Shown piece by piece: positions 1 through 63,585 of a stretch of 64,000 nucleotides of DNA. A program made the translations under genes and the position numbers. The stretch's first letter is position 1. Every line of letters begins with the position of its first letter. Origin of the DNA: Octopus vulgaris (lineage: Eukaryota); the NCBI GenBank assembly GCA_951406725.2, contig OX597833.1, positions 52,700,001-52,764,000 on the forward strand. The letters run 5' to 3'. Below the pieces are notes generated by a model that saw only the letters and a program-made list of their open reading frames with translations, was not told the DNA's origin and did not search any database.

Positions 1-327
1 ACTGAACGAGTGCGTGCAGAACGGTTTCGTCGCTCTGACCGCATCTCGGGCAGGTCGGCCCCGTGTTTCTCGAGCCGTGTCTGTAGAGCTTATCCCGAAC
101 GGGTAGCGCTTCTCGGTAGCACTGCCAGGCCAGGGATCTCTGGAAGTTGTCCATGGGCCCTGGCCCGAAAGTCGTCCTGAACAGGCGGGTCAGGTACTCC
201 TCGTCGACGTCCAGGTTCGCCCCGAGCTCGTCGTCGTACCTCCCCTCCACTAAACCCCTATAGAATGCTTTGGTTGTGTTGAAGTCACTTAAGGTCGACC
301 CAGGACGGCAGAGTTGCTTGAGAGCAA
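1..327 (-). mobile_element. L1/Tx1-clade LINE, 5'-truncated ORF2 C-terminal fragment (copy 1; continues off the left edge of the window)
   Basis: 326/327 identical by eye to 40540-40866 (only difference at position 7). The minus strand encodes the zf-RVT-like AWQCYREALPVRDKL...CPRCGQSDETVLHALVQ. The 5' truncation abuts a GACA/(GATA)n tract at 328-430. Confidence 0.9.
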
Positions 328-1626: not shown

Positions 1627-1991
1627 TACTTATTTAATCGACCCCGAAAGGATGAAAAGCAAAGTAGACCCCGGCGGAATTTGAACTCAGAACGTAGCGA
1701 CAGACGAAATACCTCTAAGCCCGGCGCGCTAACGTTTCTGCCAGCTCGCCGCCTTATACCTATTTCTTTATTACCCAAAAGGGGCTAAACACAGAGGGGA
1801 CAACAAGGACAGACATAGGTATTAAGTCGATTACATCGACCCCAGTGCGTAACTGGTACTTAATTTATCGACCCCGAAAGGATGGAAGGCAAAGTCGACC
1901 TCGGCGGAATTTGAACTCACAACGTAACGCAGACGAAATACCGCTAAGCACTTCGCCCGACATGCTAACGTTTCTGCCAGCTCACCGCCTT
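1627..1991 (-). mobile_element. SINE family B, tandem pair
   Basis: Two AAGGCGG(C/T)GAGCTGGCAGAAACGTTAGC heads with GAGTTCAAATTCC B-boxes. The upstream unit ends in tail A (...AAAGAAATA). Confidence 0.85.
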
Positions 1992-4667: not shown

Positions 4668-4981
4668 TACTTTGGTTAGTGGTCAGGGTATGCGGCTCAC
4701 GATCGTAAAATCGTGAGTTCGATTCCTGGCGGCGTGTTGTGTCCTTTGGCAAGTCACTTTATTTTACGTTCTTCCAGTCCACTCATCTGGCAAAAATAAG
4801 TTGCACCAATACTTCAAAAAGCCAGCGTTGCCATATTTTCTGTCACACCGAATCTCGATCAGAACTACATTAAGGGCATGTGTGTCTGTATAGTGCTCAA
4901 CCCCTTGCACGTTAATTTCATGTGCAGGCCGTTCCATTGATCGTATCTATTAGAACCCTCGTCGTCGTAACCGACGGAGTG
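4668..4981 (+). mobile_element. SINE with a family-D head and alternative tail E, diverged
   Basis: The tRNA head and CORE-like TTGTGTCCTTTGGCAAGTCACTT resemble 30842. The tail ...GCACGTTAATTTCA...GTCGTCGTAACCGACGGAGTG matches 31761 and 33458. Confidence 0.7.
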
Positions 4982-5679: not shown

Positions 5680-6097
5680 TATTTCTTTACTACCCACAAG
5701 GGGCTAAACATAGAGGGGACAAACAAGGACAGACAAAGGGATTAAGTCGATTACATCGACCCCAGTGCGAAACTGGTACTTTATTTATCGACCCTGAAAG
5801 GATGAAAGGCAAAGTCGACCTCGGCGGAAGTTGAACTCAGAACGTAACGTCAGATGAAATACCTATTTCTTTATTACCCACAATGGGCTAAACACAGAGG
5901 GGACAAACAAGGACAGACAAAGGGATTAAGTCGATTACATCGACCCCAGTGCGAAACTGGTACTTTATTTATCGACCCCGAAAGGATGAAAGGCAAAGTC
6001 GACCTCGGCGGAATTTGAACTCAGAACGTAACGTCAGACGAAATACCGCTAAGCATTATCGCCCGGCGCGCAAACGTTTCTGCCAGCTCGCCGCCTT
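5680..6097 (-). mobile_element. SINE family B dimer: full unit plus a 184-bp head-less unit
   Basis: Full unit at 5864-6097. The second unit, 5680-5863, starts at GGTATTTC directly after tail AAAGAAATA. Confidence 0.9.
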
Positions 6098-6688: not shown

Positions 6689-7222
6689 CAGCCCTTCCAG
6701 GAAAACCGGCTTTGTGCAGTTTCCGGCGAACAGTTTATGTGAAAACTGGGTTCTCGAGGTGGTCATAATGCTCTGCAGTAATTTTGGACGCTCTACTTTT
6801 GTGATCCTTTCTAACAACTCGCGTAAGAGCCGACGGTCCCTATGTGAAAGTTTTGGTCTTCTTGCAGATTTTTGTTTCGACGTGGAGGTTTTTTTCCTCT
6901 TTCTCAAAGGCTGTCATTACTTTCGAAACAGTACTTCTTGATACACCAAACATTTCGGCTGTTTTTCTTTACGCTAGCGCTTGCCATACGAGCACCAACA
7001 ATTTGACCTCATCGAATGTCCGATAGGTTTGTAATTTTAATGAATTTTAATTATCTTTTTCTGGTGATATCTGAAAAGAAACAGCAATTTTAGCAAAACA
7101 TATTAAGCAACACTAATAATAAATCAAAAACATAAAATAAACAAGCTTTTGACGGTTTTATAGATATTTCAAAATTATGATGCTATCATGCTAGGTGTTT
7201 CCATTATTTTGTCCACCCCCTG
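6689..7222 (-). mobile_element. Tc1-like DNA transposon, 5' half only
   Basis: TIR TA|CAGGGGGTGGACAAAATAATGGAAACACC. Homologous to 20059-20600 and encodes KTSTSKQKSARRPKLSHRDRR. Confidence 0.85.
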
Positions 7223-9183: not shown

Positions 9184-9288
9184 ATGCTCTTAGCTTAGTT
9201 TTTCCTTGGGGTTGGCTAGATTGAAGCAATCTGAAGAATCAGCCGAAATTGCGAGGATAATCTGGTTCTTGACTGAGGATAGAAAACT
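9179..9288 (+). mobile_element. Internal fragment of SINE family F
   Basis: ATCTAATGCTCTTAGCTTAGTTT...CAGCCGAAATTGCGAGGAT...GGATAGAAAACT is the reverse complement of about 62760-62875. Confidence 0.7.
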
Positions 9289-9289
9289 G

Positions 9290-9372
<83 letters not shown>

Positions 9373-9407: not shown

Positions 9408-9623
9408 TATCAATCTTTTCCTCTTTTTTCTTCCTTTTTTATTTTTATTTTCCTTTTTTTCCTTTTTTTCCTTTTTTTCCCCTTTTACGATCTCTTTTGA
9501 TCGAAAACCTACGCCTCTTCTTTTTGTTTCTCTTGTTTTTTGTTTGTCTTTTTTCATCCCACAAAAGCTCTACCTTGTAATTTGTCCCATCTCTGTGCAG
9601 CCCTGTGTGGCCAATAAAGAAAC
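9408..9623 (+). mobile_element. 3' UTR-only copy of the Tx1-like LINE (copy 3), embedded in (CTAT)n
   Basis: CCTTTTACGATC..TTTTGATCGAAA and AAAAGCTCTACCTTGTAATTTG...GCAGCCCTGTGTGGCCAATAAAGAAAC match the reverse complement of 39800-39990. (CTAT)n lies on both sides. Confidence 0.85.
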
Positions 9624-15625: not shown

Positions 15626-15965
15626 AAGGCGGCAATCTGGCAGAAACGTTAGCGCGCCAGGCGAAATGCGTAGCCGTATTTCGTCTGCCGTTACGTTCTG
15701 AGTTCAAATTCCGCCGAGGTCGACTTTGCCTTTCATCCTTTCGGGGTCGATAAATTAAGTATCAGTTACGCACTGGGGTCGATGTAATCGACTTAATCCG
15801 TTTGTCTGTCCTTGTTTGTCCCCTCTGTGTTTAGCCCCTTGTGGGTAGTAAAGAAATAGAAACGTTAGCACGCCGGAGAAAATGTTATATGGTAATTCTT
15901 CTGGATCTTTACATTGTGGTTTCAAATCCGGCTGAAGTCGGAGTCGATGAAATAAAGCACCAATT
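15626..15965 (+). mobile_element. SINE family B (tail A), full length to about 15858, followed by an older degenerate partial unit
   Basis: Complete head, core and tail. After AAAGAAATA the sequence continues with GAAACGTTAGCACGCCGG of a second unit. Confidence 0.85.
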
Positions 15966-20058: not shown

Positions 20059-21325
20059 TAGAGGGGTTGGACAAAATAATGAAAACACCTAGCATCATAG
20101 CATCATAATTTTGAAATATTTATTAATCAGTCAAAAACTTGTTTATTTTTTATGTATTTTGATTTATTATTAGTGTTGCTTAATATGTTTTGCTAAAATT
20201 GTTATTTCTTTTCAGATATCATCAGAAAAAGGTAATTAAAATTCATTAAAATTACAGATCTATCGGACTTTCATGGAGGTCAAATTGTTCGCAGCTCGTG
20301 TGGCAAGCACTAGCGTAACGAAAACAGCCGAAAAGTTTGGTGTATCAAGAAGTACTGTATCGAAAGTAATGACAGCCTTTGAGAGAGAGGGAAAAACCTC
20401 CTTGTCGAAACAAAAATCCGCAAGAAAATCAAAACTTTCAGATAGGGACCGTCGGATTCTTACGCGAATTGTTAGAAAGGATCACAAAAGTACAGCTCCC
20501 AAAATTACTGCAGAGGTTAATGACCACCTCGAGAAACCAGTTTCCACTAAAAATTTTCACCGGGAATTGCACAAATCTACTTTTCACGGTAGGGCTGCTT
20601 TCAGATAACCACTACTTTCAAGAACAAACGCTGCAAAGTGTTTAGATAGGTGTAAAAACCTATAGAATTTGGTTCCTGGAGCAGTAGAAGAATGTTATTT
20701 TCTCGGACGAGTCGTCCTTCACCTTATTTCCGACCACCAGTCGAGTATACGTGTGGAGACAGCCAAAAGAGGTATTTGACCCAGACTGCTTTCGTCCAAC
20801 GGTTAAACAATGGATGATCAGTGATGATCTGTGGGCTGGGCTATATCTTGGAAATCCGCCAGCCCAATGGTTTCCGTTCACAGCAGAGTTAAAAGTTAAG
20901 ACTGTTTAAGCATTTTATCTGATCAAATTCCTATGGTTGCAGAACTGTTTCCGGAGAGAAACGCAATATTTCAGGATGATAATGCACCAATTCACAGAGC
21001 TACTGAATGGCGCGAGGAACATTCTAATTAAGTTGAACATCTTATCTGGCCACCCCAGTCGCCAGATCTCAACATTATTGAACATTTATGGTGCATTTTA
21101 GAAAAACAAGCAAGGAGTCGATATCCTCTGCCATCATCACTACAAGAATTGGAGACTTTTCAGCTGAAGAATTGACAAAAATTCTTTTGGAAACAATTCA
21201 AACTTTGTACGAGTTCATACCTCGTAGAATTCACGGTGTAATTACTGCCAAAGGCGGCCCTGAACCATATTAAAGTTAATTCGTTTGAAATTTAAAGGTG
21301 CTTCCATTATTTTGCCCAACCTCTG
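20059..21325 (+). mobile_element. Full-length Tc1-like (DD34E) DNA transposon with a decayed transposase
   Basis: About 29-bp TIRs (AGAGGGGTTGGACAAAATAATGAAAACACC / GGTGCTTCCATTATTTTGCCCAACCTCTG|TA). Frameshifted segments encode the paired-like HTH (SVTKTAEKFGVSRSTVSKVM), VIFSDES, IFQDDNAPIH, WPPQSPDLNIIEHLW and IPRRI..VITAKGG. Confidence 0.95.
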
Positions 21326-21440: not shown

Positions 21441-21766
21441 ACTTATTTAATCGACCCCAAAAGGATGAAAGGCAAAGTCGACCTAGGCGGGATTTGAACT
21501 CAGAACATAGCGGCAGACAAAATATCTATTTCTATTTCTTTACTACCCACAAGGGGCTAAACACAGAGAGGACAAACAAGGACAGACAAACGGATTAAGT
21601 CGATTATATCGACCCCAGTGCGTAACTGGTACTTAATTTATCGACCCCGAAAGGATGAAAGGCAAAGTCGACCTCGACGGAATTTGAACTCAGAACGTAA
21701 CGGCAGACGAAATACAGCTACGCATTTCGCCCGACGTGCTACCGTTTCTGCTAGCTCGCCGCCTTA
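21441..21766 (-). mobile_element. SINE family B: full unit plus a partial head-less unit
   Basis: The minus-strand junction AAAGAAATAGAAATA|GATATTTTGTCTGCC is equivalent to the GGTATTTCGTC junction. Confidence 0.85.
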
Positions 21767-23161: not shown

Positions 23162-23463
23162 GTGGAGGCGCAATGGCCCAGTGGTTGGGGCAGCGGACTC
23201 GCGATACTAGGATCGCGGTTTCGATTCCCAGTCCAGGCGTTGTGAGTGTTTATGGAGCGAAAACAACACCTAAAGCTCCACAATGTTCCGGCAGGGGGTG
23301 GTGGTGATCCCTGCTGTACTCTTTCGCCACAACTTTCTCTCACTCTATCTTCTCTTGGCCTGCTCGCTTAGCCAGCGAGGTGGCGTCATCTGAAGGCTAA
23401 AACAATGCGAAGCGCATTGTGACCAGCGATGTGTAGCAACATCTGCTAGGCTGGTCGGTCACG

Positions 23464-23969: not shown

Positions 23970-23970
23970 T

Positions 23971-24546
23971 TAGAGAGGGAAGTGCTGTCCGATAGCAAAT
24001 TTAATGAAAGGTGGATAAATGTCGCAAGAATGGCCAGTATGAAAGGAGCCATTCTGAGAATACACCTGTAATTTGAAAAGGTATTACAAAAGGAGAAAGG
24101 GGCTCCCTACCCCCCCCCCCATTTTTTTACTAGGCTCCCGTTGGCTGTTATGGGTTTTTCCACCAGGAACCTTTCGTAACGCCTCCCCCTATTGGGAGTT
24201 TTTCGTTGTTATATTTTCGTTGATAAACTGCTTTTTTTACTCGGATTTTACAAACGGACAAAACCCTTTGTAACCGTTCGTCCTGTTTTGTCCCTTTATG
24301 TGATAATTGGTTTTTGTCAGCCCTTATTCTTTACTCTTTTACTTGTTTCAGTCATTTGACTGCGGCCATGCTGGAGCACCGCCTTTAGTCGAACAACTCG
24401 ACCCCGGGACTTATTCTTTTGTAAGCCCAGTACTTATTCTATCGGTCTCTTTTGCCGAACCGCTAAGTGACGGGGACATAAACACACCAGCATCGGTTGT
24501 CAAGCAATGCTAGGGGACAAACACAAACACACAAACACACACACGC

Positions 24547-25533: not shown

Positions 25534-25540
<7 letters not shown>

Positions 25541-25828
25541 GGGACAAGAACGCAAAAGATCCGGACAACTAAGTGATACAAAAAGGGACAACAAAACATC
25601 CAGATAGACGATACAAAAAACAAAGACGGGTCATTCGAAGCTTTCTATCCTAACTCAAGAACCGGATCATCCTCGCAATTTCCGCGGATTATTCTTGAGA
25701 TTGCTCCAATCTGGTCAGCCCCTAAGGAAAGAAAGCTTCCTTGTTTTTTTGTTTTTTTTTGTATCGTCTAACTGGATGCTTTGTTGTCCCTTTTTGTATC
25801 ATTTAGTTGTCCGAATGTTTTGCGTTCT
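25534..25828. mobile_element. SINE family F 3' part plus an inverted copy of its tail
   Basis: 25534-25730 matches 62655-62855. 25738-25828 is the reverse complement of about 25546-25628. Confidence 0.7.
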
Positions 25829-26077
25829 TACCGCATTTTTGTGTGTGTGAGTGTATATATATATATATATATATACAGCGGCATACGTACACTTTGTTCT
25901 CTTATATATTTATATGTACATACATAAATATACATATATATCAATATAAATAAATATATATATATATACATATATATACTGTATATATATGTGTGTGTAT
26001 ATATATGTGTGTGTGTCTGTGTGTATGTATATATATATGTGTGTATATATATATATATATGTGTGTATATATATATG

Positions 26078-26881: not shown

Positions 26882-27125
26882 TCGAATACATATCATTCTA
26901 CTAATACATTGTATTATATAGGGTCATTTTGACACTGCTAATATTTGTATGACACAAGACGTATGATCTTCTATTTCAGAGATATATTCTTAGAAAATTA
27001 ATTACTGAGAACTTGTTTTGTGCATAAAAATAGCAATAGTTTACGGTGGTGATAATGTATTTCATACAACGATTATCAAATCGTTAAAGAGAAAATATAC
27101 AAATGGTGAGAAAAAAGCATTTGTA

Positions 27126-27537
27126 GGCGCAGGAGTGGCTGTGTGTTAAGTAGCTTGCTTACCAACCACATGGTTCCGGGTTCAGTCCCTCTGCGTGGCA
27201 CCTTGGGCAAGTGTCTTCTACTATAGCCTCGGCCCGACCAAAGCTTTGTGAGTGGATTTGGTAGATGGTAACTGAAAGAAGCCCATCGTATATATGTATA
27301 TATATATATATGTGTGTGCGTGTATGTTTGTGTGTCTGTGTTTGTCCCCCTAGCATTGCTTGACAACCGATGCTGGTGTGTTTATGTCCCCGTTACTTAG
27401 CGGTTCGGCCAAGAGACCGATAGAATAAGTTCTGGGCTTACAAAGAATAAGTCCCGGGGTCGAGTTGCTCGATTCAATGCGGTGCTCCAGCATGGCCGCA
27501 GTCAAATGACTGAAACAAGTAAAAGAGTAAAAGAGAG
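27126..27537 (+). mobile_element. SINE family A, full length
   Basis: Complete head-to-tail match to the other copies. Confidence 0.92.
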
Positions 27538-33457: not shown

Positions 33458-33760
33458 TGGCCCTCCGTCGCTTACGACGATGAACGTTCCAATTGATCCG
33501 ATCAACGGAATAGCCTACTTCTGAAATTAACGTGCAAGTGGCTGAGTGCTCCACAGACACGTGTAGCATTAACATAGTTCTCAGAGAGAATCAACATGAC
33601 ACAGAGAGTTGACATGGCTGGCCCTTTGAAATGAAGGAACTACACGTTTTTGCCTGATGAGTGGACTGGACCAATAAAGGACACAACACGTCGCAGGGAA
33701 TTGAACTCACAACAACACCACGGTCGTGAGTCGATTACATTAACCACTAAGCCACGCCAC
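33458..33760 (-). mobile_element. SINE with D-type head and tail E
   Basis: Head AACCACTAAGCCACGCC. Tail CCTCCGTCGCTTACGACGA...GAAATTAACGTGCAAGTGGCTGAG. Confidence 0.75.
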
Positions 33761-34643: not shown

Positions 34644-34896
34644 CTTTACTCTTTTACTCTTTTACTTGTTTCAGTCATTTGATTGTGACCATGCTGGAGC
34701 ACCGCCTTTAGTCGAGCAAATCGACCCCAGGACTTAATCTTTGTAAGCCTAGTACTTATTCTATCGGTCTCTTTTTACCGAGCCGCTAAGTTACGGGGGA
34801 CGTAATCACACCATCATCGGTTGTCAAGCGATGCTGGTGGGTGACAAACACAGACACACAAACATACACACACACACGCACACGCACACGCACACG

Positions 34897-34932
<36 letters not shown>

Positions 34933-35103
34933 CATATATACGACGGGTTTCTTTCAGTTTCCGTCTACCAAATCCACTCACAAGGCTTTGGTCGGCCCGA
35001 GGCTATAGTAGAAGACACTTGCCCAAGGTCTCATGCAGTGGGACTGAACCCGGAACCATGTGGTTGGTAAGCAAGCTACTTACCACACAGCCACTCCTAC
35101 GCC
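34644..35103 (-). mobile_element. SINE family A, full length
   Basis: Complete match to the family. Confidence 0.92.
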
Positions 35104-35504
35104 TGGGAAACAGTTCTGAAGATAATAGGAAACTTCTACAACTCCGCAACGAACAATCTTCAGCTTATATGCTTTTACAGCTCAAAAATTCAATAAGACT
35201 AATTTACCCGAAATGGCGCTGCTGAAGAACATACCACAGTTTATTGAGCTGGACGCATATACATATTTGTACGTGTGTGTGTATGAATGTGTGTGTATGT
35301 ATGTGTGTGTGTGTATGTGTGTATATGTGTGTGACAGTATGTGTGTGTTTATATATAATATGAGTGCATTGCGTTTAGTTCAAGGATCTAAAAGTATGTG
35401 ATCTCACATGTGACTTTGCTTACGTGTCAATAATTTTGTAACGGGCGTGTGCAAGTGTATGTGCTCTCATATATATATTATGTATACGTGTGTGTGTGTG
35501 TGTA

Positions 35505-37654: not shown

Positions 37655-38077
37655 AAGGCGGCGAGCTGGCAGAAACATTAGCACACCGGGCGAAATGATG
37701 CGGTCTTTACGTTCTGAATTCAAATTCCGCTGAGGTTGACTTTGCCTTTCATCCTTTTGGGGTCGATAAATTTAGTACTAGTTGCGTACTAGGGTCGATC
37801 TAATCGACTGGCCTCCTCCCACAAAATTTTGGGTCTTGTACCTATAGTAGAAAAGAATACAAGGAGGCGAGCTGGCAGAAACGTTAGCACGCCGGGCGAA
37901 GTGCGTAGCAGTATTTCGTCTGCCGTTACGTTCTGAGTTCTAATTCCACCGAGGTCAACTTTCCCTTTCATTCTTTCGGGGTCGATTAAATAAGAACCAG
38001 TTACGCACTGGAGTCGATATAATCGACTTAATCCTTTTGTTTGTCCTTGTTTGTCCTCTCTATGTTTAGCCCCTTGT
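37655..38077 (+). mobile_element. Two adjacent SINE B copies: tail-B unit (37655-37857), then tail-A unit (37861-38077)
   Basis: Same head and core, with different 3' segments after the GTCGAT-N4-TCGACT hairpin. Confidence 0.85.
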
Positions 38078-38502: not shown

Positions 38503-38912
38503 ACTCTTTTACTCTTTTACTTGTTCCAGTCATTTGACTGCGGCCATGCTGGAGCACCGCCTTTAGTCGAGCAACTCGACCCCGGGACTTATTCTTTTTG
38601 TAAGCCCAGCACTTATTCTATCGGTCCCTTTTGCCGAACCGCTAAGTTACGGAGTCGTAAACACACCAGCATCGGTTGTCAAACGATGTTGGCGAAAAAC
38701 AAACACAGACACACAAACATATACACACACATACATATATATATACATATATACGACAGGATTCTTTCAGTTTCCGTCTAACAAATCCACTCACAAGGCT
38801 TTGGTCGGCCCGAGGCTAAGGTAGAAGACACTTGCCCAAGGTGCCACGCAGTGGGATTGAACCCGGAACCATGTGGTTCGTAAGCAAGCTACTTACCATA
38901 CAGCCACTCCTA
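38503..38912 (-). mobile_element. SINE family A, full length
   Basis: Complete match to the family. Confidence 0.92.
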
Positions 38913-39588
38913 TGAATATTATCCAAAGCTCCTATAAGTCTGCCAATTTGCTTTGTTGCAGCCATTTCGCTTTCTTAGAAATTAAACCCTTCCGCAAACG
39001 ATAAATAATTATTAAATTGATAAAAGTAGGGTTAATATATGCAGCAGAATTAACACACTAAAGTAGGATTAAGTTGTTTTTATCGCTCACAGCGGGAAAT
39101 TACACAGAAGCACAAAAGTAAATAAAGATTTCTTATACCCTGGTATGAGAGCTGAAATACCTAGCGTGAGGTAACAGCCCATTAAATAGCTCCCCGCTAC
39201 AGGACTGTTAATTATTTAAGGACTTGTGGAGAAATACACAGGGATGTGCTCTGCATGAAAAAAACAAAAAAAAAAACAAATGGTGTAGTCGGTGCTAATA
39301 TATTTAATAGAGTGAACGAGGAAATATTAACTAATTAAAATTATACATGTGGTGAGGAGAAATGCTCATTAGCTTGCTCGTTAACTCTGGTCAAGATAGG
39401 TGGGGAGAATAATCACAAATGAGTAATATATGTAGTAGAAGTAGGTCTGAACTTGATTGCGGAGCTCTGTAAAAATTCTAGTTATGTTCCGGGCTTATTA
39501 CACTTTTTTCATCGTAATATAGTCTTTACTAATGTCCTACCAAAGGAACCTAACTATATATATATATATGTATATATATATGTATATA

Positions 39589-39799: not shown

Positions 39800-41080
39800 G
39801 TTTCTTTATTAGCCACACAGGGCTGCACACAGATAGAACAAATTACAAGGTAGAGCTTTTCTTTTGAAGGTTTAAGAAAAAAAAAAAAAAAAAGGAAGGG
39901 GGAGTTTCGATCAAAAGGGATCGTAAAAGGAGAGAAAGAGGACAAAAAAAGGGGGGTTTAAAAAAAGGGGGGAGGAAAAAAATTGATCAATAGGGATCGT
40001 TATCACAGAAATGTCAATATGAAGTGTAAAGGGGAGGACAGGTGAGGTTTACCCGTGCAAAGAAAAGCCTACGGAAAAGACCACGGTAACCTCGGTCAAT
40101 GATGTCACATTTTATATTTCTTTTTTTTTTTTTTTTTGCAAATAAGCAACTCTCTGTTTTCGATTTCTGGGTTCATAGGACTATGCTCAAGGTGGCTTCG
40201 TCATTCATACGTGCCATTCTTGCTACATTCACCCATCTTTTTTAAAACATTCGCTAGACAAAACTTGCCTCTCTACTCTCACTTTCCTTTTCAAGTGGTA
40301 CTTGAAGAAGTTGATGGGAGATTGACCAGAGAGGAAAGTGTTTGTCTCCAATCCTTTCAGACGCGTCCACCAGATACATTCTTTCGCCATAGCCACAAGG
40401 ATGATGAAAATAGCTCTTCCTTCCCGTTTGAAGGAAGGAGGCGTGACAATATTGACGATAGACTCAGCTGATAAGCCGACTCGTCCCACACGTGACAGCA
40501 GTTGTTCGACATAAGCCCACAGGTCGGAAATTGTTGGACACTGAATGAGTGCGTGCAGAACGGTTTCGTCGCTCTGACCGCATCTCGGGCAGGTCGGCCC
40601 CGTGTTTCTCGAGCCGTGTCTGTAGAGCTTATCCCGAACGGGTAGCGCTTCTCGGTAGCACTGCCAGGCCAGGGATCTCTGGAAGTTGTCCATGGGCCCT
40701 GGCCCGAAAGTCGTCCTGAACAGGCGGGTCAGGTACTCCTCGTCGACGTCCAGGTTCGCCCCGAGCTCGTCGTCGTACCTCCCCTCCACTAAACCCCTAT
40801 AGAATGCTTTGGTTGTGTTGAAGTCACTTAAGGTCGACCCAGGACGGCAGAGTTGCTTGAGAGCAACGCGACACTCGCGGTGCCATTCGCCCTTCCTCGG
40901 CCTCTTTTTGATCCACGACTGCAGTTCGGTCATGGAGACGAGCTGCGGGAAAGCGTGCCTCACAAACGGCGACCACACCTGTTCACCGTCGTCTACATAG
41001 AGCCAGAGATGCCGCAGTCTCAGCGCGTGTCTGCGCATCATCAACCACGGCATGCCCAGCCCTCCTTTTAACGGGTGTTT
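39800..41080 (-). mobile_element. L1/Tx1-clade LINE, 5'-truncated (copy 2, about 1.28 kb), embedded in (GATA)n
   Basis: ORF2 C-terminus, pyrimidine-rich 3' UTR and terminal AATAAAGAAAC. (GATA/GACA)n lies at 39686-39788 and 41088-41443. Confidence 0.92.
40229..41080 (-). pseudogene. LINE ORF2 C-terminal region (post-RT part with zf-RVT-like CCHC finger), 5'-truncated
   Basis: Open from the truncation point: HPLKGGLGMP (P..GGLG.P motif of L1/Tx1), AWQCYREALPVRDKL and CPRCGQSDETVLHALIQC (CX2CX8HX4C). A 1-bp slip in an A-run near 40240 cuts off RWVNVARMAR... Confidence 0.88.
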
Positions 41081-41088
41081 ATAAATAA

Positions 41089-45648: not shown

Positions 45649-46232
45649 AAGGCGGCCAGCTGGCAGATACGTTTGCACGCCGGGCGAAATGCTTAGCGAT
45701 ATTTAGTCTGCTGTTACGCTCTGAGTTCAAATTCCGCCGAGGTCGACTTTGCCTTTCATCCTTTCGGGGTCGATTAAATAAGTACCAGTTACGCACTGGA
45801 GTCGATATACTCGACTGAATCCGTTTGTCTGTCCTTGTTTTTCCCCTCTGTATTTAGCCCCTTGTGGGTAGTAAAGAAATAGGTATTTCGTCTGCCGCTA
45901 TGTTCTGAGTTCAAATTCCGCCGAGGTCGACTTTGCCTTTCATCCTTTCGGAGTCGATTAAATAAGTACCAGTTACGCGCTGGGGTCGATATACTCGACT
46001 GAATCCGTGTGTCTGTCCTTGTTTGTCCCCTCTGTGTTTAGCCCCTTGTGGGTAGTAAAGAAATAGGTATTTCGTCTGCCGTTACGTTCTGAGTTCAAAT
46101 TCTGCTGAGGTCGACTTTGCCTTTCATCCTTTCGAAGTCGATAAATTAAGTACCAGTTGCATACTGGGTCGATCTAATCGACTGACTCCCTCCCCCAAAA
46201 TTTCCGGCCTTGTGCCTAGAGTAGAAAAGAAT
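45649..46232 (+). mobile_element. SINE family B trimer: full unit, 184-bp head-less unit, head-less tail-B unit
   Basis: Junctions AAAGAAATA|GGTATTTCGTCTGCC at 45882 and 46066. Confidence 0.92.
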
Positions 46233-47803: not shown

Positions 47804-47807
<4 letters not shown>

Positions 47808-47880
47808 CATTTATTTGCCACAAGAGCTAAGGATGAGGAGTACAATACAAAGACAGACAAAAAGTGTGGGAGAGGGTTGA
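47804..47880 (-). mobile_element. Isolated LINE/SINE-B-type 3' tail fragment inside (AAT)n/(GAT)n
   Basis: Minus-strand TTTGTCTGTCTTTGTATTGTACTCCTCATCCTTAGCTCTTGTGGCAAATAAATGAAAT aligns with tail A. Confidence 0.65.
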
Positions 47881-47897
47881 CATATAATGAAATGATA

Positions 47898-49878: not shown

Positions 49879-49944
49879 AAACAATAACAAACAAGCAAAT
49901 TGTTAAGGGTCTGTATCGGCAACTTATTATTATTTCTCTTCAAG

Positions 49945-50448
49945 ACATTATTATGTCTCCTCAAAGACATACATCATCTCGAAAGAGTCCAGAAGCTGGC
50001 TACCCGTATGGTTCTTGGTCTCAAGCATTTGTTTTATGAAGAAAGGCTGAAGACACTCGACCTTTATTCTCTAGAAAAACGACGACGCCGTGATGATCTC
50101 GTTCTTGCTCACAACATCATAAGCGGAAAGTGTAACCTCTCAAAAGAGTTGTTTATCACTCCTGCTCCAGAGTGGCGGCTTCGGGGTCACTCCGAAAAGC
50201 TCTATCTGCGACGATTTCATCTCAATCGAAGGAGTGGGGCTTTCTCCGTCCGGGTTGCGGATCCGTGGAATAAGCTGCCGGACGAGATAGTGAAGATGCC
50301 GACGATCGCTCGGTTCAAAGTCTCCCTTGACCAGAAATGGCCTGAACTCTTTGCATGAATACCACCCTGTACATAACTCCATGTCCCCCTACATGGCCTT
50401 GCTTTTTGCTTTTTGAGCCAAAAAATTAACTTAACTTAACTCAACTAT
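49945..50448 (+). mobile_element. CR1/L2-group LINE 3' end, 5'-truncated, with a (TAACT)n tail
   Basis: Encodes KDIHHLERVQKLATRMVLGLKHLFYEERLKTLDLYSLEKRRRRDDL...LRGHSEKL...FSVRVADPWNKLP..FK (canonical CR1 ORF2 C-terminus), with a stop at 50358. A short 3' UTR ends in TTAACTTAACTTAAC. Confidence 0.92.
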
Positions 50449-53134: not shown

Positions 53135-53799
53135 AGTGAGAGAGAAGGAATTAATGTTTGTCAGGGTAAATTTAGGATGATACGTGCCTTACTTTGTTAA
53201 TTTATTTATACATTGATTACAAGTGTTCCCCCAACGACTTCTCATAGTACCAAAATATCACGCACAGACGCGCGCATGCGCATACAGGCATCATTTTGGA
53301 GTAAGGTGGCGAGCAAAATGCTTAATAACTTTTCGTTAATCCTTACGTTCTTAGTTTAAATTCCGCAGAGGTCGACTTTGCCTTTCATCCATTTGGGGGT
53401 CGATATAATAAGTACTAATCGAGCACTGGGGTCGATGCAGTTCAACAGGCCTCACAACGAGGCACTCAAACAGTTGCTGATCCCTTGCAAGGTTCAAGTG
53501 AAACCCATAATTAAATACTGGCCGCTTAAATGCAACGGTGCCTTTTATATATATATATACACATCCTTGAGCACTTCCAAAAGAAAGCAATCTGATGTAC
53601 TGATGTGGGTGTCAGCAACCACTATACCCTAACTTCTAAATGTACCGTAAACTAATCAAAGGGCCTTCATGCGGATGCTCGACCTGCAAAGAGTACCTCC
53701 TAAATCTCCCTAAACTAACACGTTATCTTGAAAATTAAAGGACCAGCGCTCATGTCAGTATATATGTTAAAAGTCATATCCTATATCCTCTTTTATATT

Positions 53800-54105
53800 C
53801 TTTTCTAGTTTAGGCACAAGGTCTGAAATTTTAGGTAAGGGGACCAGTCGATTAGATCGACCCCAGTACGCAAAGATGAAAGGCAAAGTCGACCACGGTG
53901 GAATTTGAACTCAGAATGTAAAACAGACAGACGAAATACCAATTTCTTTACTGCCCACAAGGGGTTACACACAGAGGGGACAAACAAGGACAGACAAACG
54001 GATTGAGTCGATTATATCGACCCTAGTGCATAACTTGTACTTATTTAATCGCCCCCGAAAGGATGAAAGTCAAAGTCGACCTCGGCGGATTTTGAACTCA
54101 GAACT
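53800..54105 (-). mobile_element. SINE B: tail-A unit followed by a head-less tail-B unit
   Basis: Minus-strand junction AAAGAAATT|GGTATTTCGTCTG at 53940/53941. Confidence 0.8.
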
Positions 54106-54142
54106 TTACCTATGCTTATTTGTAGCAAATAAGTATAGGTAA

Positions 54143-54387
54143 AGTTACATTCCGAATCATGCCGACTCATAAGGGCCGGTTTCCCTGTTTCCATGCGTAT
54201 AAATTATCCACCTGGAGGGGACGCCGCTCCATCGCAGGATTACTCATTTTTGCCGGGTGAGTGGACTGGAGCGACGCGAAATGAAGTGTTTTGCTCAAGA
54301 ACACAACGCGTCGCATGGTCCGGAATCGAAACCGCAATCTTACGATCATGAGTCCAACACCCTAACAACGAAGCCACGCGGCCCCAC
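54143..54387 (-). mobile_element. SINE family D
   Basis: Reverse complement of 30842-31070. Confidence 0.8.
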
Positions 54388-59113: not shown

Positions 59114-59651
59114 GGAGGCCCAGTGGTTAGGGCAGCGGACTCGCGGTCGGGGGACCGCGGTTTCGTCTCCCAGACCAGACGTTGTGTGTGTTTATTAAGC
59201 GAAAACACCTAAAGATCAAAGAGGAGTGCCGAAAGAGATCATAGAGGAGTCCCGAAAGAGATCAAAGAAGGTGCCGAAAGAGATCAAAGAGGGTGGCGAA
59301 AGAGACCAAAGAGGTGTCCCGAAAGAGATCAAAGAGGGTGCCGAAAGAGATCAAAGAGGAGTCCCGAAAGAGATCAAAGAGGGTGCCGAAAGAGATCAAA
59401 GAGGGTGTCGAAAGAGATCAAAGAGGTTGCCGAAAGAGATCAAAGAGGGTGCCTAAAGCTCCGCGAGGTTCCGGTAGGGAGTAGTGGTGACCCCTGCTGT
59501 ACTCTTTCGCCGCAACTTTATCTCCCTCTTTCTTCTGTTTGCCTGCTCGCTTAGCCAGCGGTGTGACGTCATTTGAAGGCTAAAACAATGCGCATTGTGA
59601 CCAGCGATGTGTAGCAACATCTGTTAGCCTGGTCGGTCACGTGATCACGTG

Positions 59652-60441: not shown

Positions 60442-60775
60442 TGAGTGGCTGTGTGGTAAGTAGCTTTCTTACCAACCACATGGTTCCGGGTTCAGTCCCA
60501 CTGCGTGGCACCTTTGGCATGCATCTTCTACTATAGCCACGGGCTGACCAAAACCTTGCGAGTGGATTTGGTAGACGGAAACTAGAAGAAACCCGTCGTA
60601 TATATGTATATGTATGTATATATATGTGTGTGTGTGCAATTTCGGCTGGTTATACTCGAGATTGCTCCAATCTGGCCAGCCCCAAAGAGAAACTAAGCTA
60701 AGAGCATTAGATTCCTTGGAAGAAAGCAAGGACTTCCACGCACTCTATAAGGTGGCACTCTGTGGGACCCAACCG
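60442..60775. mobile_element. SINE A 5' half (+, 60442-60635) abutting a SINE F 5' part (-, 60636-60775)
   Basis: Homology to 60962 and to 62796-62940. Confidence 0.75.
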
Positions 60776-62651: not shown

Positions 62652-62655
<4 letters not shown>

Positions 62656-62976
62656 CAAAAATGGGACAAGATCGCAAAACATCCAGACAGGTGATGCAAA
62701 AAATGGACAACAAAGCATTCAGAGAGACGATACAAAGATAAGAAGGACGGGCCATTCGGAGTTTTCTATCCGCAGGCGAGGTCCAGATCATCTTTGCAAT
62801 TTCGGCTGGTTATACTACTCGAGATTGCTCCAATCTGGTCAGCCCCAAGAAGAAACTAAGCTAAGAGCATTAGATTCCATGGAAGAAAGCAGAGACTTCC
62901 ACACATTTTCTAAGGTGCCACTATGTGGGACTGAACCCGGAACTGTGCGGTTGCAAAGCAACTTTCTTTACCACAC
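62652..62976 (-). mobile_element. SINE family F (A-type tRNA head, distinct body and tail), apparently full length, inside an old SINE A
   Basis: The head GTGTGGTAAAG...CCGGGTTCAGTCCCAC..GTGGCACCTT joins the F body. The same head-body junction is seen at 60720-60775. Confidence 0.7.
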
Positions 62977-63136
62977 ACCATTTCCTTCTCCATTCTTTTA
63001 TGTAACAGCATTCAGTTTTATGTAACAGCGTTCAGTTTTATTACCATTATATTATACTTAATATTTTTGAGTGTGTGTTTGGATATGTATATATATATAT
63101 ATATATATACACGCACATACATCTGCATATATTTAT

Positions 63137-63278: not shown

Positions 63279-63585
63279 TCACGTGCTCACGTGACCGACC
63301 AGACCATCAGATGTTGTTACGCATCGCTGGTCACAATGCGTTCGCATTGTTTTAGCCTTCGAATGACGCCACCCCGCTGGCTAAGCGAGCAGGCCAACAG
63401 AAGAAAGAGTGGGAGAAAGTGTGGTGAAAGAGTACAGCAGGGATCACCACCCCCTGCCGGAGCATCGTGGAGCTCTTTAGGTGTTTTCACTCTAAGAACA
63501 CTCACAACGCCCGGTCTGGGAATCGAAACCGCGATCCTACGACCACGAGTCCGCTGCCCTAACCACTGGGCCATTGCGCCTCCAC
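63279..63585 (-). mobile_element. SINE family C, full length
   Basis: Reverse complement of 23162-23468. Confidence 0.9.

What the first reader, a model, noticed from the sequence alone, without database searches (positions are those of the whole stretch)
45820..45881. SINE B tail A is homologous to the 3' end of the Tx1-like LINE: candidate LINE-SINE partner pair
Seen: LINE end (9573-9623) CCTTGTAATTTGTCCCATCTCTGTGCAGCCCTGTGTGGCCAATAAAGAAAC versus SINE tail (15810-15858, 46017-46065) CCTTG---TTTGTCCCCTCTGTGTTTAGCCCCTTGTGGGTAGTAAAGAAAT. They are colinear right up to the terminus. Established: many SINEs borrow the 3' tail of a stringent partner LINE (usually CR1, L2 or RTE), whereas L1-type elements usually act through poly(A). 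Inference: SINE B is mobilised by a Tx1-lineage RT that recognises this tail, which would be a less commonly reported pairing. Neither element shows a poly(A) tail here.
Basis: partly seen in the sequence, partly recalled or inferred. Interest (0 to 1): 0.75.

Follow-up and report, generated by a model that had tools for sequence, protein, structure and literature searches.

The report
Octopus SINE carrying a Tx1-like tail
A common short repeat in an octopus-like genome ends in the same ~50 bases as a microsatellite-targeting LINE of the L1/Tx1 group, suggesting it borrowed that tail to be copied, a known trick with an unusual partner that still needs genome-wide proof.

Summary
The last ~52 nt of 8 SINE units match both LINE 3' ends in the window (9622+, 39801-): 31-34 of 42 terminal bases identical, and 0 of 5000 shuffles score as high. 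The 39.8 kb LINE is a dead, 5'-truncated ORF2 end with a zf-RVT domain and cephalopod relatives. Three copies abut (TATC)n, so it is L1/Tx1-group and probably Tx1; no RT tree was possible.

For it: no poly(A), older SINE copies carry other tails, and one tail-A-ended array has a 17-bp target-site duplication. Against this LINE as the exact partner: the tails are only ~78% identical (93% within the SINE), no SINE sits in (TATC)n, and an orphan end at 47.8 kb matches equally well. In 7 of 8 units tail A is followed by another SINE unit, and two arrays end in a different tail. The hairpin shows no covariation.

Verdict: a Tx1-lineage-derived tail, probably served by a sister subfamily; stringent recognition is not shown. 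A new variant of a known kind.

The parts
45649..45882 (+). SINE B unit 1 (head, body, tail A) of a three-unit array
45828..45879 (+). Tail A segment homologous to the LINE 3' end (the finding)
   Evidence: 0 of 5000 shuffles; 31 of 42 identical
45661..45735 (+). Pol III A-box-like (45661-45671) and B-box-like (45725-45735) motifs, judged by eye against recalled consensus; no tRNA detected
   Evidence: negatives
45883..46066 (+). Unit 2: headless body starting at unit position ~51, with tail A
46067..46232 (+). Unit 3: headless body from the same position, ending in the different tail B
39801..41083 (-). LINE copy B: 5'-truncated, frameshifted ORF2 C-terminus with zf-RVT, 3' UTR and shared terminus; (TATC)n on both sides
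9411..9622 (+). LINE copy A: 3' UTR-only truncated copy inside (TATC)n
1..326 (-). Third copy of the same LINE subfamily (325 of 326 nt identical to 40540-40865), different 5' truncation point, (TATC)n upstream; runs off the window
5680..6097 (-). Two-unit SINE array ending in tail A, bounded by a 17-bp target-site duplication
1760..1991 (-). Tail-A unit inserted directly in front of another SINE B copy; 7-bp duplication (ambiguous)
15626..15859 (+). Tail-A unit followed by a decayed SINE B copy starting at unit position ~19
21532..21765 (-). Tail-A unit followed by a headless unit that is cut by a (TACA)n run
53797..54104 (-). Headless tail-A unit plus headless tail-B unit
37655..38077 (+). 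Tail-B monomer followed by a tail-A-type unit whose terminus is lost
47804..47890 (-). Orphan 3' end resembling tail A and the LINE ends, between (ATT)n and (ATC)n, with no SINE body upstream
23970..24318 (+). LINE copy C: last 33 codons and 3' UTR of a sister subfamily, after (TTA)n; terminus interrupted by another repeat

Best explanation
SINE B is an octopus SINE, probably Pol III-transcribed, that exists with several interchangeable tails. One young subfamily replaced the older tail, just after a conserved body hairpin, with the last ~55 nt of a Tx1-lineage LINE, including the LINE's AATAAA signal. The likely route is a template switch during reverse transcription (inferred). A Tx1-lineage ORF2 protein then copied RNAs ending in this tail by target-primed reverse transcription, without poly(A), into sites that mostly begin with RTAT: simple repeats and the head region of other SINE B copies. 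This produced tandem arrays. The working partner is more likely a sister subfamily than the (TATC)n-specific copies seen here. Shown: tail homology, a common terminus, LINE group, LINE target bias, and one long TSD. Inferred: direction LINE to SINE, Tx1 clade, trans-mobilisation, and recognition of the tail.
For: Tail homology beats all shuffles. 11 of 12 control ends in the window score at most z=2.6 against the LINE ends, against z 7.4-7.9 for tail A. No similarity between the LINE UTR and the SINE body upstream of the tail in 3 of 3 tests, and 4 older copies with 72-84% body identity lack tail A (3 end in other tails, 1 has none); both fit LINE-to-SINE direction. All 8 intact tails end at the same base in 4 different 3' contexts. 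The 6.1 kb array has a 17-bp TSD found only on the matching flank pair of an 8x8 matrix; 45 of 128000 strand positions would give it. AATAAA is kept in 2 of 2 LINE ends but reads AGTAAA in 6 of 8 SINE tails. No internal T4 run in the one unit checked. LINE: zf-RVT E=5e-08; full-length relatives have APE+RT+zf-RVT; a relative is closer to L1 ORF2p (1e-50) than to R2 (1e-24). 5 of 5 visible junctions of 3 copies lie at (TATC)n, which is near 1.4% of positions. Tx1 families that target microsatellites, and Tx1-mobilised SINEs, are documented (PMC4494074).
Against: SINE-LINE tail identity (31-34 of 42) is below SINE-SINE (mean 39.1) and LINE-LINE (38) identity. 0 of 8 SINE tails are followed by (TATC)n. 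7 of 8 tails are followed by another SINE unit, 5 of them at the same internal position, which could be one inherited junction; 2 arrays end in tail B. Of 10 start-to-end pairings tested for tail-A-containing loci, only 1 gave a long TSD, and it is low-complexity: a looser null gave 3633 of 127910 positions. The 7-bp TSD at 1.9 kb equals the common junction word, so it is not specific. Terminal folds are no better than shuffles (z -1.4 to +1.2), and 0 of 10 pairs show two-sided changes. A hairpin conserved upstream in both LINE UTRs (z -3.6, -2.7) lies outside the shared segment. One of 5 old SINE tails (27.5 kb) also resembles the LINE ends (z 4.4-4.5).
Confidence: 0.58

Rival explanations
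1. Passenger tail: a truncated Tx1 end landed once in a SINE B copy. The composite then spread as a dimer ending in tail B, mobilised by another LINE, with arrays formed by unequal recombination.
For: 5 of 8 tail-A junctions are at one internal position; the arrays at 45.6 and 54.1 kb end in tail B; neighbouring units share private variants (97% at 6.1 kb). Tail B has a weak resemblance to the window's CR1-like 3' end (10 of 1000 shuffles).
Against: The 6.1 kb array ends in tail A with a 17-bp TSD. Three other 3' contexts exist. No TSD was found around the 3 tail-B-ended elements tested.
Confidence: 0.2
2. A Tx1-lineage RT does mobilise the SINE but does not read the tail sequence. Priming comes from short pairing between the RNA end and the nicked target, or from a transient A-tail lost into microsatellites.
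For: No structural covariation; the tails have drifted to ~78% identity; the bases after tail A resemble the SINE's own head at the junction site; SINEU is attributed to Tx1 without a shared tail (PMC4494074).
Against: Homology stops at exactly the LINE terminus, and 28 of 55 columns are invariant over 10 ends. No poly(A) remnant in the 10 flanks printed.
Confidence: 0.14
3. Reverse direction or convergence: the LINE acquired a SINE tail, or both converge on a pyrimidine-rich end with a polyadenylation signal.
For: One old SINE tail resembles the LINE end; tails A and B share a short word (8-20 of 500 shuffles); a Penelope-like end scores z=3.6 against tail A.
Against: No SINE body in the LINE UTR. 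A sister LINE subfamily's UTR end weakly resembles LINE A/B (12-13 of 1000). The dinucleotide-preserving null is rejected.
Confidence: 0.06

Closest known systems
SINEU / Tx1-Mar of crocodilians (Kojima 2015, PMC4494074; read parts 2-3 of 5 and passages)
   Same: A SINE attributed to Tx1 machinery; target preference for another repeat; frequent tandem insertions.
   Different: SINEU has snRNA heads and poly(A) tails, and no LINE sharing the SINEU-1 3' end was found. Here the link is a shared 3' sequence without poly(A), and the target does not match the LINE copies seen.
ZmSINE2/3 with LINE1-1_ZM, and SINEX-3_CR with L1-1_CR (Ohshima 2012, 2013; PMC3472496 passages; PMC3747384 passages and Table 1)
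   Same: Shared 3' ends between a SINE and an L1-group LINE.
   Different: These are plant and algal L1 lineages; the monocot case has compensatory stem changes. Table 1 as displayed names no Tx1 partner and no cephalopod pair. No covariation was found here.
Kibi, Koshi and crocodilian microsatellite-targeting Tx1 families (as described in PMC4494074)
   Same: L1/Tx1-group LINE with insertion into simple repeats.
   Different: The targets here are (TATC)n and probably (TTA)n/(ATC)n, not (TC)n, (TTC)n, (TTCC)n or (TTTC)n; the host is a mollusc.
MetaSINEs and octopus OK/OR1/OR2 SINEs (PMC4824008 section 9 and passages; Ohshima and Okada 1994 not seen, only cited)
   Same: A tRNA-type head, a central domain and swappable tails; tail exchange by template switching is proposed there. 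The resemblance of the SINE B body to the Meta-domain is recalled, not tested.
   Different: Section 9 says partners of the MetaSINEs were not identified, and section 11 names L2 and CR1 partners for bivalve SINEs. Identity of SINE B with any named family could not be checked.

Membership tests
Tx1 clade (LINE) | ORF2 with APE endonuclease, RT and C-terminal zinc motif | tested here: met
   zf-RVT in the window copy; RT in relatives at 61-71% identity; APE only in relatives-of-relatives at ~42%. The window copy itself is truncated.
Tx1 clade (LINE) | RT phylogeny groups with Tx1/Keno/Kibi/Koshi rather than L1 | not testable with these tools
   No named Tx1 reference among the top 120 hits of either search. 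The PDB hits were only L1 and R2, which places it in the L1/Tx1 group at best.
Tx1 clade (LINE) | Target-sequence preference (common, not universal) | tested here: met
   3 of 3 copies, 5 of 5 junctions at (TATC)n in one orientation, against 1.4% background; small n.
Tx1 clade (LINE) | ORF1 with zinc knuckles (recalled feature) | not testable with these tools
   No 5' part of the element in the window.
tRNA-derived SINE | Head alignable to a tRNA, with A and B boxes | tested here: inconclusive
   Box-like motifs by eye; ARAGORN and Rfam found nothing.
tRNA-derived SINE | Short, non-coding, interspersed, high copy number | tested here: met
   234-nt unit; 14 intervals, 5.6% of the window.
Stringent SINE/LINE partner pair | Homologous 3' ends with a common terminus | tested here: met
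Stringent SINE/LINE partner pair | Conserved terminal stem-loop with compensatory changes | tested here: inconclusive
   A 10-pair interrupted hairpin fits 96.7% of cells but has 0 two-sided changes and -4.2 kcal/mol; only 9 distinct, closely related rows.
Stringent SINE/LINE partner pair | Same insertion signature in SINE and LINE | tested here: not met
   For the (TATC)n subfamily: 0 of 8 SINE tails lie in (TATC)n. A sister subfamily is not excluded.
Stringent SINE/LINE partner pair | Tail required for trans-mobilisation; overlapping ages genome-wide | not testable with these tools
   Needs an assay and the genome. In the window both look young: SINE units 86-97%, two LINE ORF fragments 325 of 326.
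MetaSINE superfamily | 66-bp Meta-domain after the head | tested here: inconclusive
   Short motif searches in 2 supplementary files of PMC4824008 and 4 of PMC4758252 found nothing; 1 file of each was not searchable and the alignments are figures.

The most novel reading that the evidence does not exclude
An animal Tx1 lineage recognises its RNA by a specific poly(A)-free 3' sequence. A major octopus SINE captured that sequence and with it an insertion bias for its own promoter region, so it stacks into self-targeted arrays. This would be a shared-tail SINE/Tx1 pair of a kind not found in my literature searches, and a direct test of whether stringent recognition was ancestral in the L1 group.
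Probability: 0.25. Interest if true: 0.72.

Novelty: new variant of a known kind. Interest (0 to 1): 0.5.

Why it matters
Whether L1-group elements began with stringent 3'-end recognition and relaxed to poly(A) dependence is posed as an open question by Ohshima (PMC3747384), with shared-tail examples only from monocots and a green alga. A shared-tail, poly(A)-free pair on the animal Tx1 branch would add an independent data point and a ready substrate for assays. It would also name a motor for part of the octopus SINE expansion: SINEs are 11.6% of the O. vulgaris genome, most recently active SINE families are unclassified, and 13 L1-Tx1 families are recently active (PMC13282606). The mechanism class itself is textbook, and the pair may already be noted in Repbase or Dfam, which could not be searched.

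Tried and rejected
More copies from outside the window: two scans of bacterial/archaeal genome contigs for stray host DNA found 0, and the plasmid collection gave no match. No eukaryotic genome collection was available; metagenome and viral contigs stayed unchecked. All DNA evidence is therefore from 64 kb.

Clade naming: three protein searches gave no Tx1-named hit, and a cluster-member look-up could not be made.

Head origin: no tRNA or Rfam match. The bacterial promoter scan is not informative for this host.

Terminal hairpin: not supported beyond compatibility. LINE C as a closer tail donor: rejected, 138 of 1000 shuffles as good. The CR1-like end and the second SINE family's end as tail-A donors: rejected (817 and 380 of 1000). 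The repeat finder was swamped by microsatellites. The script stopped with an error after printing the numbers used; its remaining steps were run.

Literature: 8 searches showed no report of an octopus SINE/Tx1 shared tail; the listings were screened by title and start of abstract only. The octopus genome paper (Albertin 2015) was not held. Passages of PMC4758252, PMC5786205, PMC8967140, PMC3531059 and PMC12988792 and the supplement of PMC13282606 added no such pair. Subscription papers, Repbase, Dfam and unsearchable supplements may bear on novelty.

Full report
Setting. The window is microsatellite-rich animal DNA (30% masked as tandem repeat) with several interspersed repeat families. Named protein relatives of its LINE come from Argonauta hians and Octopus bimaculoides, so the host is almost certainly an octopod. 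SINE B occupies 14 intervals, 5.6% of the window.

Observation. The last 70 nt of 4 of the 8 intact tails were aligned to both LINE ends under two scoring schemes; in all 16 tests 0 of 5000 dinucleotide shuffles reached the observed score. Scanning the whole window with the tail ranks 9 SINE copies first, then the two LINE ends, then an orphan end at 47.8 kb, with a clear gap to background. Over the terminal 42 nt without gaps, SINE and LINE share 31-34 bases, SINE copies share 39.1 on average and the two LINE ends share 38. Homology ends at the same AAAGAAA and there is no poly(A). Of 12 control ends, 11 score at most z=2.6 against the LINE ends; one old SINE tail at 27.5 kb reaches z=4.5.

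The LINE. Copy B (39801-41083, minus) holds the C-terminal part of an ORF2 with a zf-RVT domain, a frameshift near its end and a pyrimidine-rich 3' UTR. Copy A (9411-9622) is UTR only. A third copy at 1-326 is 325 of 326 identical to part of B but truncated at a different point. Relatives at 61-71% identity carry RT and zf-RVT; their relatives add an APE domain; the nearest solved structures are L1 ORF2p, then R2. All 5 visible junctions of the 3 copies lie at (TATC)n in one orientation, against 1.4% background. A sister subfamily fragment at 23970 follows (TTA)n. Microsatellite targeting is described for Tx1 families (PMC4494074), and L1-Tx1 is the only L1-group class among recently active O. 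vulgaris LINEs (PMC13282606 Table 1). Tx1 is therefore likely, but no tree with named references could be built.

The SINE. The unit is 234 nt, with box-like motifs in the head (by eye; no tRNA detected), a conserved body and a variable tail. Tail-A units are 86-97% identical to each other in the body; three copies end in tail B; four older copies at 72-84% lack tail A. Tail A begins right after a hairpin shared by all types, and nothing upstream resembles the LINE UTR. This fits a tail swap from LINE to SINE (inference); tail exchange by template switching is proposed for MetaSINEs (PMC4824008).

Is tail A a working 3' end? In 7 of 8 units the tail runs straight into another SINE B unit: 5 at unit position ~51, 1 at ~19, 1 at a full head. 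The eighth ends in (TA)n(CA)n. The finding's own copy is the first of three units, and its array ends in tail B without a TSD. The 6.1 kb two-unit array ends in tail A and is bounded by a 17-bp duplication. That match appears only on the correct flank pair in an 8x8 matrix and at 45 of 128000 positions, although a looser null that admits plain (TA)n gives 2.8%. The 7-bp duplication at 1.9 kb is the same word as the common junction and is ambiguous. One locus therefore supports tail-A-primed insertion well, two are compatible with it, and the recurring junction could be self-targeting or an inherited dimer.

Which partner? The SINE does not share the (TATC)n target, and its tail is further from these LINE ends than copies of either family are from each other. 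The orphan end at 47804-47890, lying between (ATT)n and (ATC)n with no SINE body, matches tail A as well (z=7.9) and the LINE ends less (z=3.5-4.0). It may represent a sister subfamily nearer the donor, but it has no ORF, so this is a lead only. LINE C's UTR end does not match tail A significantly (138 of 1000).

Structure. A 10-pair interrupted hairpin fits 96.7% of cells, but with no two-sided change and a covariation score not above shuffles. Single-strand folds of 8 termini are not better than shuffles. A better hairpin about 110 nt upstream is kept in both LINE UTRs and lies outside the shared segment. Stringent recognition through structure is not shown.

Comparison. It works like a shared-tail SINE/LINE pair, and one defining test (same insertion signature) failed for the LINE subfamily at hand. 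SINEU is a Tx1-attributed SINE but is poly(A)-tailed without a shared tail. L1-group shared tails are known from maize/sorghum and Chlamydomonas, and Ohshima's Table 1 as displayed names no Tx1 partner. Eight searches showed no report of this pair, but Repbase, Dfam and the 1994 and 2015 octopus papers were not seen.

Verdict. Real homology (about 0.9); mobilisation by a Tx1-lineage protein through this tail about 0.58; passenger tail 0.2; tail-independent priming 0.14; reverse direction or convergence 0.06. New variant of a known kind; interest 0.5.

Noticed in passing
window 1-326, 9411-9622, 39801-41083; 23970-24318; 47804-47890: Sister L1/Tx1-group subfamilies appear to partition microsatellite targets: (TATC)n versus (TTA)n/(ATC)n.
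   Followed up: partly
window 9489-9504 and 39924-39909 (minus): A short perfect hairpin conserved in both LINE 3' UTRs within otherwise divergent pyrimidine tracts; candidate cis-element absent from the shared tail.
   Followed up: partly
window 46170-46232, 37804-37858, 53797-53851: Tail B of SINE B has no identified partner; weak resemblance to the CR1-like end at 50360-50445 (10 of 1000 shuffles).
   Followed up: partly
window e.g. 27125-27517, 34667-35104, 38522-38915: A second abundant repeat with two arms separated by a microsatellite (13 left arms, at least 16 right arms); its tail does not match the LINE ends.
   Followed up: partly
window 49891-50445: C-terminal fragment and 3' UTR of a CR1-like LINE (assignment recalled from motifs; no Pfam hit), ending in short tandem repeats.
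   Followed up: partly
window 20169-20608 and 6689-7117: Two fragments of a Tc1/mariner-type transposase gene (HTH_Tnp_Tc3_2 below the curated cut-off).
   Followed up: no
window 9184-9290, 25535-25842, 60635-60774, 62655-62995: A further repeat family ending at (TA)n, Penelope-like by recall; its end scores z=3.6 against tail A.
   Followed up: partly
window 54105-54147: A ~20-bp-arm palindrome directly upstream of the headless SINE unit at 54104.
   Followed up: no
window 4676-4981, 23162-23463, 33458-33750, 59292-59636, 63290-63582: Another ~300-nt interspersed family with 11 intervals, not characterised.
   Followed up: no
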